A DNA stretch of 61,304 bases from a virus (lineage: Duplodnaviria > Heunggongvirae > Uroviricota > Caudoviricetes): the IMG/VR virus record IMGVR_UViG_3300015155_000017; one strand, written 5' to 3'. Of this stretch, positions 50,989-53,545 are shown one piece after another. The notes under the pieces were generated by a model. It was not told where the DNA came from, did not search any database, and saw nothing but the letters and a program-made list of their open reading frames with translations. The translations under genes and the position numbers were made by a program. Within the stretch, counting starts at the first letter, position 1, and the number at the start of each line of letters is the position of its first letter.

Positions 50989-51010
50989 CTACGTTTCAAA
51001 GATATACATT

Positions 51011-51027
51011 ATTGCTCTAATTAATTT
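51011..51027 (+). promoter_or_regulatory. C1 operator upstream of ssb
   Basis: ATTGCTCTAATTAATTT. Confidence 0.6.
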
Positions 51028-51046
51028 ATTTTATTAGGTAAGACAA

Positions 51047-51535
51047 GTGGCACAACGCGGTGTAAACAAAGTCATCCTGATTGGTACCCTGGGGCAAGAC
51101 CCGGAGATCAGGTATATACCAAATGGCGGCGCGGTCGGAAGACTAAGCATCGCAACGAATGAATCATGGCGCGACAAGCAAACGGGCCAACAGAAAGAGC
51201 AAACAGAATGGCATAAAGTCGTTTTGTTCGGGAAACTTGCTGAAATTGCGAGTGAGTATTTACGAAAAGGTTCTCAGGTCTACATCGAAGGGAAACTTAA
51301 AACCCGTAAGTGGACAGATGACGCCGGTGTAGAACGTTACACGACGGAAATTATCGTCAGCCAGGGCGGCACCATGCAAATGATCGGCGCTCGCCGTGAC
51401 GATTCACAGTCCTCAAATGGCTGGGGGCAATCAAACCAACCTCAAAACCACCAGCAATACAGTGGTGGCGGTAAACCTCAGAGCAACGCCAATAACGAAC
51501 CTCCAATGGACTTTGACGACGATATTCCGTTTTGA
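51047..51535 (+). CDS. ssb: single-stranded DNA-binding protein (162 aa)
   Basis: OB-fold N-terminus, Gly/Gln-rich linker, C-terminal DFDDDIPF tail. Confidence 0.95.
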
Positions 51536-51732
51536 ATGTGTAAAAAACGACTGAAAGAAAAGCGGTGGTCCAGACGCCGACAAAAGCACGAACTCGCAAA
51601 CAAACGCCAAAGTTGGCAATGGCACGCGCTTTTCACGAAAAGAACACCCCGAGATATTGCTTTCGCTGGTGGGAAAACATTCCTGACCCACCTGAAGGCG
51701 CAAGACATCAGGTTTTAAGCAGAGGAAAGACT

Positions 51733-52410
51733 ATGAATAACATGACAACGAAAGAGCTTTTGACGGCACTTCCAAAATACAAAAGCCATAAAACAGTTCG
51801 CGCCTCAAAAATCAAAGATATCGAAATTATCGCCCTAATGGATGTGGTCCTTCTTTGCAACATCGAAGTCGTTGAGCCAGAAGGGGTAAAAGTCCATGTT
51901 GATAAAATGTTTTTGCAAAAACACCGACCAGAAATTGGCGGATATCTGGTCGCTTATGAGGACGGATCTCTGTCCTATTCACCAGAAAAAACATTTGAAG
52001 AAGGCTTTAGTCGGACTAACGACTTCTTCGAAAATGGGGTATCGCTCAGCATTGAAGGTCACAATGGGGTGACATTCATTACAGCCAGGGACGTAACTAT
52101 TTCTGCTGGCGGTATCGCTACTCTACAAGAAGAAATCGACCTTGAAGCAGCCGACTTTTCTGACGCGCTGATGTGGCTGAAGGATGGCAAGAAAGTTGCT
52201 CGACGCGGGTGGAACGGCGAAAACCAATTCTGCTGGCTGGTTCCTGAAGGACAGTACCCGGCACGAATGGAAGCCATTAAGGGATATTTCCCCGGCGACC
52301 TCGTTCCGTATGGTGCTTATTTCGCCTTAAAAAATGCACAAGGTGTAGTTGTTCCGTGGGTTCCTTCTGTAGGCGACTTACTGGCATGTGACTGGTTTGT
52401 AGTGGAGTGA
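51733..52410 (+). CDS. two-domain protein with C-terminal DUF2829/Tad2-like domain (225 aa)
   Basis: FSDALMWLKDGKKVARRGWNG...VPWVPSVGDLLACDWFVVE fits the DUF2829 pattern as I recall it; AGAGGAAAG SD. Confidence 0.6.
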   Translation: MNNMTTKELLTALPKYKSHKTVRASKIKDIEIIALMDVVLLCNIEVVEPEGVKVHVDKMFLQKHRPEIGGYLVAYEDGSLSYSPEKTFEEGFSRTNDFFENGVSLSIEGHNGVTFITARDVTISAGGIATLQEEIDLEAADFSDALMWLKDGKKVARRGWNGENQFCWLVPEGQYPARMEAIKGYFPGDLVPYGAYFALKNAQGVVVPWVPSVGDLLACDWFVVE

Positions 52411-52416
52411 TTTAAC

Positions 52417-53205
52417 GTGGAAAATACTAAAGCAATTCAATACCGCCTGCGTAATGGTCAGAGTGTCGAAGTGACCATCAATAATGATGGTGTGCCTGGC
52501 GAAAAGGTTTCGATCTCTGATCTGGCTATCGAAAAAACCATCATGTGCCACCTTGGCTTTACTGAAGAAGTGAGCAAAAAGCATGGTGTAGCTATCTGGC
52601 GCACAATGGATACTGGCATGCGCAGATTCATTACTGCTCGTACCCCTGGTATGACCATGATGGACCTCATGCAGATTGCGCCGCTGTTTGAGTGTGAACC
52701 TTTGGATGTATTCAGCAATCCAGCTATCTGCCAGCAGTTATATGGTGAGATGAAACTCGCGGTTACCCCCATTGTGCTGCATGAAGGATCGCTTGCTGGC
52801 GTGTGGAAAGTAGAGCGTATTTCAAGCTACATGCCCTTCCATTTCCATGTCAACGGCATAATCACTGGTGAAAACCAACCTGTTTCCGTTACAAAGTCAG
52901 ACCTCAAGCGCGCAATTCTTGAAGCAAGTTGTCGAGTTATCGGCCTGGGCAAACAGTCTTATGTTTCCTTCCCGGCTGGCCCTGAAGGCCCGGCAGAAAT
53001 TCTGATTATGGATGCCGATCTGCTCTGGCAAATACAGTTTCTGATTGGCAAAAGCATCATCCGCGCTGAAGAACTCGATCAGTACATTACCTGCACGATG
53101 ACGGATGAAGTCAAAAGTGTGGCTATAGCCAATGCCCGGAACCTATGTCGTGCTGCATTAACAGAACTGCAAGAAAACACCACGGAAGAAGTGGAAAGCG
53201 ATTAA
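52417..53205 (+). CDS. hypothetical protein (262 aa)
   Basis: GTG start after upstream stop. Confidence 0.5.
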   Translation: MENTKAIQYRLRNGQSVEVTINNDGVPGEKVSISDLAIEKTIMCHLGFTEEVSKKHGVAIWRTMDTGMRRFITARTPGMTMMDLMQIAPLFECEPLDVFSNPAICQQLYGEMKLAVTPIVLHEGSLAGVWKVERISSYMPFHFHVNGIITGENQPVSVTKSDLKRAILEASCRVIGLGKQSYVSFPAGPEGPAEILIMDADLLWQIQFLIGKSIIRAEELDQYITCTMTDEVKSVAIANARNLCRAALTELQENTTEEVESD

Positions 53206-53235
53206 AAAAATCCCGCCAATCGGCGGGATTTCTTC
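53203..53235. terminator. bidirectional terminator
   Basis: AAAAAAA TCCCGCC AATC GGCGGGA TTTCTTC between convergent genes. Confidence 0.65.
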
Positions 53236-53545
53236 AATATACGATCTGGTCTACATGATCACCAAAATCATCGTCGTCGTCGTCCTCATCGCCACCATCT
53301 ACTGCTGGCCAATCAACAAACCAGCCAGCGTAAAGATGCAGCGTTCGGAGAACATCACTTGCGGGAGCATCAAGGGTGTTAACGAATCCCATATAGCTAT
53401 TGGGATTTGCCCCAGCTATGGCTTCAGCGATCATGTCCTCGGTAATGTCACCGGAGATAATGCTTAAACGCCCGGAAACTTCTTCATTATCATCAAATTC
53501 GATAATGGCATCTCCGCCTAATGGCGCTGCGATTTTAATCTGCAT
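53234..53545 (-). CDS. iddB: acidic small protein, last gene of dar operon (103 aa)
   Basis: C-terminal poly-Asp run; symbol from P1 position. Confidence 0.5.
   Translation of the reverse strand: MQIKIAAPLGGDAIIEFDDNEEVSGRLSIISGDITEDMIAEAIAGANPNSYMGFVNTLDAPASDVLRTLHLYAGWFVDWPAVDGGDEDDDDDDFGDHVDQIVY

What the first reader, a model, noticed from the sequence alone, without database searches (positions are those of the whole stretch)
51733..52410. DUF2829/Tad2-like domain fused to an N-terminal extension, just after ssb
The C-terminal ~85 aa (FSDALMWLKDGKKVARRGWNG...VPWVPSVGDLLACDWFVVE) fit the DUF2829 pattern I recall, the fold of the anti-Thoeris protein Tad2, which sequesters Thoeris signalling nucleotides. 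Here it follows a ~140-aa N-terminal domain of unknown function. A signal-sponge anti-defence gene next to ssb in a P1-like phage would be noteworthy.
Basis: partly seen in the sequence, partly recalled or inferred. Interest (0 to 1): 0.6.

Follow-up and report, generated by a model that had tools for sequence, protein, structure and literature searches.

The report
Tad2 sponge fused to Dec-like domain
This P1-like phage-plasmid gene encodes a predicted "sponge" for bacterial immune alarm molecules (Tad2 family, a known kind) joined to a second, untested domain related to a phage capsid-decoration protein; that partner domain is the only new question.

Summary
Window 51733-52410 (+) is a 225-aa ORF 197 nt downstream of ssb. 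Residues 141-224 match Pfam Tad2-like/DUF2829 (E=1.6e-22). The closest solved relative is Myroides ModTad2, a His-ADPR sponge (46% identity).

The N-terminal part is not unknown. Residues ~12-95 form an OB fold homologous to the capsid-binding domain of the phage L decoration protein Dec (profile E=1.1e-5).

The window is a P1-like phage-plasmid. Phage P1 lacks exactly this gene, so it is an accessory cassette. It lies downstream of ssb, whose promoters are C1-repressed in P1.

The most likely function is sequestration of a TIR-derived ADP-ribose signal. The exact ligand cannot be called, because the pocket signature differs from both characterised Tad2 proteins.

This is not a new discovery. 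The gene is annotated as DUF2829, and a 2025 survey reports Tad2 in 56% of P1-type and 93% of D6-type elements.

What is untested is the OB domain. It defines about 2,700 protein clusters. In a sample of 147, its only recurrent Pfam partners are validated sponge families (Sequestin, Tad2, Acb4), plus one Acb2/Tad1 hairpin. A 2025 sponge screen excluded such fusions. I rate it a new variant of a known kind, of moderate interest.

The parts
51011..51027 (+). C1 repressor operator (P1 Op21/Ossb equivalent), ATTGCTCTAATTAATTT, overlapping the ssb promoters
   Evidence: Window 51000-51736 aligns 98.9% with P1. P1 annotates the monovalent C1 operator Ossb and promoters P1ssb/P2ssb at the corresponding positions. 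The sequence was read directly. That the operator works in this element is inferred from P1.
51047..51535 (+). ssb, single-stranded DNA-binding protein; first gene of the presumed early operon
   Evidence: 162-aa ORF. NCBIfam SSB models match at 2e-81. Annotated as ssb in SJ46 and P1.
51536..51732 (+). 197-nt spacer between ssb and the gene, conserved in P1; holds the RBS AGAGGAAAG at 51721-51729
   Evidence: No + strand terminator-like site was found. No Rfam match reached threshold. The fold z-score is -0.94, which is not special. SJ46 and P1 annotate this stretch as coding from a GTG. The last 12 codons carry 4 amino-acid changes between P1 and the window, which fits non-coding sequence.
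51733..52410 (+). The gene: 225-aa Dec-like OB + linker + Tad2 fusion protein
51766..52017 (+). Residues 12-95: OB-fold domain homologous to the capsid-binding domain of phage L Dec; no Pfam family
52018..52134 (+). Residues 96-134: variable linker with low model confidence, possibly a remnant of a Dec-like beta-helix stalk
   Evidence: pLDDT is below 50. 'ITARDVTISAGG' resembles Dec 'STARTITLTGAV'. The linker is absent or replaced in several homologues: P0104, P0116, P0118.
52135..52407 (+). Residues 135-225: Tad2-like (DUF2829) domain, including the variable beta2-beta3 insertion at residues 168-195
   Evidence: PF11195 E=1.6e-22. ModTad2 9eib at 46% identity, Foldseek E=1e-9. Pocket residues are W160, N161, L199, N201, Q203, V207, W209, S212, G214, D215.
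52417..53205 (+). isaA homologue (262 aa, function unknown), the conserved downstream partner of the gene
   Evidence: PHROG 2326 at 5.6e-151, function unknown. No Pfam, NCBIfam or PDB match. The OB-Tad2 + IsaA pair also occurs together at a different locus in D6-like elements.

Best explanation
The gene encodes an accessory anti-defence protein of a P1-like phage-plasmid.

Expression (inferred). It is probably transcribed with ssb from the C1-repressed early promoters. The protein would then appear as soon as the repressor is absent, on infection or induction.

Tad2 domain (inferred from homology; the fold and core pocket residues are shown). The C-terminal domain would assemble like its solved relatives into a homotetramer. 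It would bind and sequester a TIR-derived ADP-ribose signal of a Thoeris-type system. The beta2-beta3 insertion may form a second pocket for a cyclic nucleotide, as in ModTad2 and HgmTad2. Sequestration would keep the host effector from being triggered.

Ligand (unresolved). The exact ligand cannot be assigned. The domain is closest to ModTad2 (His-ADPR, cUMP/cCMP), but its adenine-side pocket signature N201/Q203/V207/G214 is its own.

OB domain (inferred). The N-terminal Dec-like OB domain is a separate, independently exchanged module. I consider it most likely an accessory ligand- or target-binding module that belongs to the same counter-defence function, not a capsid cement. Its actual role is unknown.
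For: Shown:
- The Tad2 domain is well above the Pfam threshold.
- It is 46% identical to ModTad2 with an insertion of the same length, and the fold matches.
- The core contact residues of SPO1 Tad2 listed in Yirmiya et al. are conserved here and in 37 homologues, apart from a W-K allele.
- The gene is an exact cassette. P1 matches the window up to 51736 and again from 52421, and P1 uses the same RBS and ATG for isaA.
- Of 620 P1-like plasmid records with a match, 106 carry the full ssb-gene-isaA arrangement. Many others show the P1-type gap.
- 213 of 5,426 complete E. coli genomes hold a relative, almost always on plasmids.
- The C1 operator and ssb promoters are annotated upstream in P1, and no terminator-like site separates ssb from the gene.
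- Segments recombine independently. The N-domain is 54-67% identical where the linker and Tad2 are 89-100% identical (P0004-P0011). The Tad2 insertion is swapped on its own in P0003. This pattern fits specificity modules in an arms race.

From the literature:
- Tad2 proteins sequester 3'cADPR, His-ADPR, N7-cADPR, cyclic dinucleotides or cUMP/cCMP.
- Fused sponge domains are common and functional, e.g. Acb4-Tad2.

For the OB domain:
- Among 147 cluster representatives, the only recurrent Pfam partners are Sequestin (7), Tad2 (6) and Acb4 (4). One further member carries an Acb2/Tad1 hairpin.
- About 25 positions are nearly invariant across these representatives, many of them polar or aromatic. 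Dec lacks 11 of them.
Against: - No experiment exists for this protein or for any Dec-like/Tad2 fusion. The 2025 sponge screen removed proteins carrying a 6E3C-like domain, and 19 of its 84 tested sponge homologues inhibited none of seven systems.
- Pocket residues on the adenine side differ from both SPO1 Tad2 and ModTad2, so binding of any known signal is not assured.
- Tetramer formation with a 135-residue N-terminal extension was not modelled.
- Co-transcription with ssb is inferred from P1 annotation and from the lack of a predicted terminator. It is not shown.
- The only characterised relative of the N-domain is a capsid decoration protein.
- Stand-alone OB genes sit in mixed contexts. 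These include the portal-to-capsid interval of Ralstonia phage GP4 and the lysis-to-packaging gap, as well as early regions.
- The window allele has S79 and F92 where the family has near-invariant Tyr, and other P1-like alleles have lost more of the conserved positions. This could mean relaxed constraint on the N-domain.
Confidence: 0.62

Rival explanations
1. Double sponge. The Dec-like OB domain is itself an uncharacterised signal-binding (sponge) family. The protein would then neutralise two different immune signals, as Acb4-Tad2 and Tad2-Sequestin fusions do.
For: - In 147 OB-domain cluster representatives, the Pfam partners are Sequestin (7), Tad2 (6), Acb4 (4) and one Acb2/Tad1 hairpin. 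The two other single hits have weak E-values (examples).
- The OB domain occurs in either order relative to Tad2 (P0169, P0258), in tandem (P0129, P0158), and as OB+Acb4+Sequestin (P0271).
- Sequestin was discovered by exactly this fusion logic, but through Pfam. The OB domain has no Pfam family, so it could not be picked up that way.
- Near-invariant His, Lys, Tyr, Ser and Asp positions occur across phages of many hosts, and most are absent from Dec.
- Most members are small stand-alone proteins. The median length in the sample is 139 aa.
Against: - No oligomer or pocket was modelled.
- OB folds are generic binders.
- The one studied homologue binds capsids.
- The structure-guided sponge pipeline of Tal et al. 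did not report this family. It may have been excluded because of its HHpred hit to Dec.
- Conserved positions are eroded in several P1-like alleles.
Confidence: 0.25
2. Capsid-associated protein. The OB domain binds the phage head as in Dec. The protein would be either a decoration protein carrying a Tad2-like head, or a sponge or shield tethered to capsids, the structures that several signalling defences sense.
For: - The N-domain is homologous to the Dec capsid-binding OB domain.
- The linker has a short match to the Dec stalk motif.
- Some stand-alone homologues lie among head genes or in the same lysis-to-packaging gap as dec itself.
- One paper reports that a capsid-vertex mutation lets T6 escape type IV Thoeris (abstract).
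Against: - The gene sits in a presumed early, C1-controlled operon with ssb, not behind an annotated late promoter.
- P1, which shares the ~3.7 kb of flanking sequence compared here at 96-99% identity, lacks the gene. Proteomics also indicate that P1 virions have no decoration protein.
- N-domain alleles differ by 35-45% on ~90-kb P1-like contigs. That is hard to reconcile with binding a conserved capsid lattice, although capsid genes were not compared.
- Dec lacks 11 of the family's near-invariant residues and falls in a different PHROG.
- A D2 tetramer (Tad2) and a capsid-templated trimer (Dec) do not fit together simply.
Confidence: 0.1
3. Anti-CRISPR (AcrIIA7-like) or toxin (the RefSeq name 'MW1434 family type I TA system toxin'). 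On this reading the DUF2829 domain acts on Cas9 or as a toxin.
For: DefenseFinder labels the family 'Tad2 AcrIIA7'. HgmTad2 (8kbi) was first described as AcrIIA7. One RefSeq record gives the toxin name to a 98%-identical copy.
Against: - Li et al. could not reproduce any Cas9 inhibition by HgmTad2 or other Tad2 proteins.
- Type II-A CRISPR is not a feature of E. coli or Salmonella (general knowledge).
- No NCBIfam model, toxin or otherwise, matches the protein.
- Carriage is stable in 213 complete genomes, and no antitoxin-like small RNA or ORF was seen.
Confidence: 0.03

Closest known systems
ModTad2 (Myroides odoratus prophage Tad2; PDB 9EIB, 8V3E)
   Same: - DUF2829 fold, 46% identity over 88 residues, with a beta2-beta3 insertion of the same length.
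- The core W-N...W..S..D pocket motif is conserved.
- ModTad2 sequesters His-ADPR (type II Thoeris), and cUMP/cCMP in a second pocket.
   Different: - ModTad2 is an 89-aa single-domain protein. This one carries about 135 extra N-terminal residues.
- Pocket positions equivalent to SPO1 T65/D67/H71/T78 are N/Q/V/G here and T/D/A/S in ModTad2.
- Activity has not been tested here.
SPO1 Tad2 (gp34.65; PDB 8SME-8SMG), founder of the Tad2 family
   Same: Same family. W25, N26, W73, S76 and D79 are conserved here. Tetrameric sponge mechanism for 3'cADPR/2'cADPR.
   Different: About 33-35% identity. The insertion is short, and F44 occludes the second pocket. Single domain. Bacillus phage.
Phage L Dec decoration protein (PDB 6E3C)
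   Same: The N-terminal OB fold is homologous (profile E=1.1e-5, 26-29% identity). The shared core is P-E-x-G-G-Y-L...F-E-x-x-Y.
   Different: - Dec lacks 11 of about 25 near-invariant residues of the wider OB family.
- Dec has a 57-residue trimeric stalk and no sponge domain.
- Dec is encoded after the lysis genes, at the end of the genome record, and belongs to a different PHROG.
Multi-sponge fusion proteins (Acb4-Tad2 of Pasteurella phage Pm86; Tad2-Sequestin; Sequestin-Acb4), Tal et al. 2025
   Same: Same design principle. A Tad2 domain is joined by a flexible linker to another small phage domain, and P1-like relatives of this very gene carry Sequestin at the C-terminus (P0061, P0073, P0099).
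   Different: The partner here is the Dec-like OB domain. It has no Pfam family and no demonstrated activity, and it was deliberately excluded from the follow-up screen.

Membership tests
Tad2 / DUF2829 (PF11195) immune-signal sponges | Sequence match to the family model above the curated threshold | tested here: met
   80.3 bits against a cut-off of 25, E=1.6e-22, profile positions 2-73 of 73.
Tad2 / DUF2829 (PF11195) immune-signal sponges | Tad2 protomer fold | tested here: met
   AF2 pLDDT is mostly 77-92 per 10-residue block over residues 141-225. Foldseek to 9eib gives E=1e-9, and target-normalised TM-scores reach 0.75-0.89 against ModTad2 chains.
Tad2 / DUF2829 (PF11195) immune-signal sponges | Conserved ligand-pocket residues (SPO1 W25, N26, W73, S76, D79; HgmTad2 W21/N22, S90/T92/D93) | tested here: met
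   W160, N161, W209, S212 and D215 by alignment. The adenine-side and water-coordinating positions differ (T65N, D67Q, H71V, T78G), so specificity is undetermined.
Tad2 / DUF2829 (PF11195) immune-signal sponges | Homotetramer with pockets at protomer interfaces | not testable with these tools
   Only monomer prediction was available.
Tad2 / DUF2829 (PF11195) immune-signal sponges | Binds and sequesters an immune signal and rescues phage from Thoeris, CBASS or Pycsar | not testable with these tools
   Needs biochemistry and infection assays. Fusions with a 6E3C-like domain were excluded from the published screen.
Dec-type capsid decoration proteins (phage L Dec) | N-terminal Dec-like OB fold | tested here: met
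Dec-type capsid decoration proteins (phage L Dec) | C-terminal three-stranded beta-helix stalk that trimerises | tested here: inconclusive
   Only a match of about 11 residues (ITARDVTISAG against STARTITLTGA). pLDDT is below 50. The linker is missing in several homologues.
Dec-type capsid decoration proteins (phage L Dec) | Same orthologous group and late (structural/lysis) gene context | tested here: not met
   Dec is in phrog_3018 (head decoration). The N-domain is in phrog_11049, 872 and 9467, all of unknown function. The gene lies downstream of the C1-controlled ssb promoters.
Dec-type capsid decoration proteins (phage L Dec) | Binds assembled capsids | not testable with these tools
   P1 virions have no decoration protein, but P1 lacks this gene, so that result says nothing about this element.
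AcrIIA7 anti-CRISPR | Inhibition of Cas9 | not tested
   Not reproducible for HgmTad2/AcrIIA7 in Li et al.. Not pursued further.

The most novel reading that the evidence does not exclude
The Dec-like OB domain would define a large, unnamed family of phage counter-defence modules: about 2,700 clusters at 50% identity, with no Pfam entry. It would be either a fifth immune-signal sponge, or a module that targets sponges to the structure the host senses. It would be the common fusion partner of up to four unrelated sponge families (Tad2, Acb4 and Sequestin recurrently; Acb2/Tad1 once). On this reading the phage L decoration protein Dec would be a derived member that lost the ligand site. The P1-like gene would then be a two-activity inhibitor whose two specificity modules (the OB domain and the Tad2 insertion) are shuffled by recombination.
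Probability: 0.3. Interest if true: 0.8.

Novelty: new variant of a known kind. Interest (0 to 1): 0.5.

Why it matters
The Tad2 part only adds a predicted anti-Thoeris function to a clinically common class of E. coli and Salmonella phage-plasmids, and a survey has already reported that.

The useful outcome is a sharply defined, testable question: what does the Dec-like OB domain do? In the sample examined, its only recurrent Pfam partners are validated immune-signal sponges, and it has been left out of the published screens.

P1 gives a natural control, because at this locus it differs from the window only by lacking exactly this gene. If the OB domain proves to be a sponge or a targeting module, three things follow:
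- a new anti-defence family of thousands of proteins would be added;
- the ancestry of the Dec decoration protein would be re-read;
- as with earlier sponges, a new reagent for capturing unknown immune signals could become available.

Tried and rejected
- Upstream GTG start (51565, 281 aa, as annotated in SJ46 and as the start of P1 isaA). Rejected in favour of the ATG at 51733.
- A structured RNA, promoter or terminator in the conserved 197-nt ssb-gene spacer. Nothing was found: no + strand terminator-like or sigma-70-like site, no Rfam hit, and a fold z-score of -0.94.
- NCBIfam. No model matches the protein.
- The word-indexed search with the N-domain returned only close P1-like relatives. 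The exhaustive phmmer search was needed to see the wider family.
- Pfam on 24 N-domains gave no family.
- Genomic context of stand-alone OB genes was sampled in annotated phages and metagenome contigs. The contexts are mixed (early region near RecT/SSB, lysis-to-portal gap, portal-to-capsid interval), so context does not decide between the sponge and capsid readings.
- BFVD fold search of the N-domain found only uncharacterised viral proteins.
- Lockin as the identity of the N-domain. Rejected. Lockin is described as an elongated, curved beta protein that forms hexamers and is absent from INPHARED genomes. This OB domain occurs in 36 INPHARED records.
- P0023 (tail-fibre repeat + truncated OB + Tad2) looks like a recombinant or an assembly artefact, and I did not use it.
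- ModTad2 His-ADPR and cUMP contact residues could not be extracted. The available preprints do not name them.
- IsaA: no Pfam, NCBIfam or PDB relative.

Full report
**What is there.** Window 51733-52410 (+) is a 225-aa ORF. It has a good Shine-Dalgarno sequence (AGAGGAAAG, 51721-51729). It starts 197 nt after the stop of ssb, which is 51047-51535 and matches SSB models at 2e-81. Pfam places residues 141-224 in PF11195, Tad2-like/DUF2829, at E=1.6e-22 (80.3 bits against a cut-off of 25), covering essentially the whole model. The sequence search of PDB chains returns ModTad2 (9eib, 6e-20), HgmTad2/AcrIIA7 (8kbi, 4e-10), SPO1 Tad2 (8sme, 7e-9) and SptTad2. An AlphaFold2 model built on 38 full-length homologues has two confident domains, residues 4-96 and 138-225, and a low-confidence linker at 97-137. 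Foldseek puts the C-terminal domain on ModTad2 at E=1e-9 with 46% identity.

**Which genome, and how the gene sits in it.** Window 51000-53300 (ssb to isaA, including the gene) is 98.3% identical to Salmonella phage SJ46 (genus Punavirus). Window 51047-53205 is 100% identical to the 96-kb E. coli plasmid NZ_CP103660.1, so this is a P1-like phage-plasmid.

- Phage P1 itself matches the window up to 51736 and again from 52421. It therefore lacks exactly this gene.
- At the junction, P1 keeps the same ribosome-binding site and ATG and runs straight into isaA. In the window the OB-Tad2 cassette lies between that ATG and codon 3 of isaA.
- This also argues that the ATG at 51733 is the true start, not the upstream GTG annotated in SJ46 and P1. 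PGAP, the 453-member cluster P0001 and PHROG 872 agree.
- Of 620 P1-like plasmid records with a match, 106 carry the full ssb-gene-isaA arrangement. Many others show the P1-type gap.
- 213 of 5,426 complete E. coli genomes hold a DNA-level relative, almost always on plasmids.
- In D6-like elements the same gene plus isaA lies elsewhere, after dut and next to phd/doc.
- P1 annotates two ssb promoters and the C1 operator Op21 at positions that correspond to window 51011-51027. I found no terminator-like site on the + strand between ssb and the gene. Early, repressor-controlled co-transcription with ssb is thus inferred, not shown.

**The Tad2 domain.** Yirmiya et al. list the contacts of SPO1 Tad2 with 3'cADPR: W25, N26, W73 and D79, plus S76, T78, I63, T65, D67 and H71.

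- By alignment, the core set is conserved here as W160, N161, W209, S212 and D215.
- The adenine-side and water-coordinating positions are L199, N201, Q203, V207 and G214. ModTad2 has L/T/D/A/S at those positions.
- The signature W-N-L-N-Q-V-W-S-G-D holds in most of the 38 family members, from Escherichia to Klebsiella phages. A second allele has Lys in place of N161.
- The domain shares with ModTad2 the long beta2-beta3 insertion. In ModTad2 and HgmTad2 that insertion forms a second pocket, for cUMP/cCMP or for cyclic dinucleotides.
- I conclude that a nucleotide-signal sponge function is likely and that the ligand cannot be named. Tad2 proteins are known that bind 3'cADPR, His-ADPR, N7-cADPR, cyclic dinucleotides or cUMP/cCMP.

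**The N-terminal domain is not 'unknown'.**

- A profile of 24 N-domains hits the phage L decoration protein Dec (6e3c) at E=1.1e-5, aligned 13-92 to 13-92. The shared core is P-E-x-G-G-Y-L ... F-E-x-x-Y.
- Foldseek gives E=1.1e-3.
- Dec's OB domain is its capsid-binding leg, and its C-terminus forms a trimeric stalk. The linker here has only a short resemblance to that stalk, and it is dispensable in several homologues.

**How wide the OB family is, and what it keeps company with.**

- An exhaustive phmmer search with residues 1-100 finds 2,699 cluster representatives at E<=1e-3 and 130 at E<=1e-10. Most are small proteins.
- The domain has no Pfam family.
- I scanned the 147 best representatives against Pfam. 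The recurrent partners are PF21825 (7 members), PF11195/Tad2 (6) and PF13876 (4). One member has the Acb2/Tad1 hairpin PF24729.
- PF13876 is Acb4 and PF21825 is Sequestin. Both are experimentally validated sponges. Sequestin was itself discovered because it is fused to Tad2 and Acb4 in Pfam.
- Architectures include OB-Tad2, Tad2-OB, OB-Acb4, OB-OB-Acb4 and OB-Acb4-Sequestin.
- Hadary et al. state in their Methods that sponge homologues carrying 'PF21825 or PDB 6E3C' domains were removed before their 84-protein screen. Such fusions are therefore known to exist but are untested.
- I found no paper in the library that links an OB fold with immune-signal sponges.

**Sponge-like module or capsid binder?**

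Points for a ligand- or target-binding role:
- About 25 positions are nearly invariant across the 147 representatives: Y16, H19, K20, V22, A24, K26, I27, K63, H64, P66, G69, G70, Y71, V73, Y75, D77, G78, Y79, S81, S83, P84, F88, E89, G91 and Y92. Many are polar or aromatic, which is unexpected for a surface that must fit unrelated capsids.
- Dec lacks 11 of them and belongs to a different PHROG.
- The window gene sits in a presumed early operon.
- On ~90-kb P1-like contigs the N-domain alleles are only 54-67% identical, while the linker and Tad2 domain are 89-100% identical.

Points for a capsid role:
- The only studied homologue binds capsids.
- Some stand-alone OB genes lie among head genes (Ralstonia GP4) or in the same lysis-to-packaging gap as dec. 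Others are in early regions next to RecT and SSB.

Caveats:
- The window allele keeps 23 of the 25 consensus positions, with S79 and F92 instead of Tyr. Other P1-like alleles keep as few as 11. Relaxed constraint in this lineage cannot be excluded.
- P1 virions have no decoration protein, but P1 lacks the gene, so this does not decide the matter.

**Novelty.** RefSeq names the protein 'DUF2829 domain-containing protein' and UniRef names it 'Thoeris anti-defense Tad2 family protein'. One RefSeq record calls a 98%-identical copy 'MW1434 family type I TA system toxin'. A 2025 survey of 2,304 phage-plasmid contigs reports DefenseFinder 'Tad2 AcrIIA7 (anti-Thoeris)' hits in 93% of D6-group and 56% of P1-group elements. 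The presence of a Tad2 gene in P1-like phages is therefore already known. The anti-CRISPR label is not supported, because Li et al. could not reproduce Cas9 inhibition. What is not known is the activity of this fusion class and of its OB partner.

- The best explanation, at about 0.6, is an early-expressed Tad2-family sponge against a TIR-type (Thoeris-like) signal, carried as an exchangeable cassette and joined to an accessory Dec-like OB module.
- The most novel reading that remains open, at about 0.3, is that the OB domain is a large uncharacterised counter-defence family in its own right.
- I rate the finding a new variant of a known kind. Interest is moderate and rests on the OB domain, not on the Tad2 call.

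Noticed in passing
window 52417-53205 (isaA); L008 3706-4482: The 262-aa IsaA homologue (PHROG 2326; no Pfam, NCBIfam or PDB relative) follows the OB-Tad2 gene both here and at a different locus in D6-like phage-plasmids (after dut, next to phd/doc). The two genes seem to travel as a pair, so IsaA may be functionally linked to counter-defence.
   Followed up: partly
window 51565-51732; P1 NC_005856 21569-22531: P1 isaA and SJ46 J46_0048 are annotated from an upstream GTG. This adds 56 Arg/Lys/Thr/Pro-rich codons that are open in frame. The RBS + ATG at 51733 (P1: AGAGAAAAGACTATG) is the more likely start, so the P1 reference annotation of isaA is probably too long at its 5' end.
   Followed up: partly
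window 53206-53236 compared with P1 locus L002 5529-7242: The window, like SJ46, lacks the IS1 copy and isaB that lie between isaA and hxr in P1. The ssb-hxr interval is therefore a variable accessory region with at least three presence/absence units: OB-Tad2, IS1 and isaB.
   Followed up: partly
L007 1187-1861 (NZ_CP148988.1): RefSeq names a 98%-identical copy of this gene 'MW1434 family type I TA system toxin', while other records say 'DUF2829 domain-containing protein'. The toxin name looks like an annotation artefact, since no NCBIfam model matches the protein.
   Followed up: partly
P0056 (241 aa); L008 2513-3699: A dUTPase-Tad2 fusion protein exists in E. coli. It has 98% identity to the window's Tad2 domain from the linker onward. 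In D6-like elements dut lies immediately upstream of the OB-Tad2 gene. A deletion that removes the OB domain would create this fusion.
   Followed up: no
alignment A1, residues 160-215 of the window protein: A second Tad2 pocket allele circulates in P1-like elements. It has K instead of N161, D201, S/N207 and D/A214, always with a short beta2-beta3 insertion (for example P0021, P0031, P0047). This suggests a different ligand specificity.
   Followed up: no
window 53176-53333: Several sub-threshold Rfam 'leader' hits (E 0.1-0.4) pile up between the convergent isaA and hxr genes. They most likely reflect a bidirectional terminator hairpin, not any riboswitch or leader.
   Followed up: no
P0057, P0067, P0073, P0105 (relatives found): Other P1-size contigs carry Tad2 domains 80-85% identical to this one but with different N-terminal modules. 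These include a 'W-x-K-P-x-E...G-D-W-I-x...F-x-x-x-Y-E' beta module with no Pfam hit at E<=0.01, and C-terminal Sequestin (PF21825). The locus behaves as a mix-and-match array of small counter-defence domains.
   Followed up: partly
BFVD hit A0A384WK77 (Vibrio phage vB_VpaS_KF6): The OB-domain fold also matches part of a 394-aa protein annotated as a putative MazG pyrophosphatase. This would be another nucleotide-related fusion partner.
   Followed up: no
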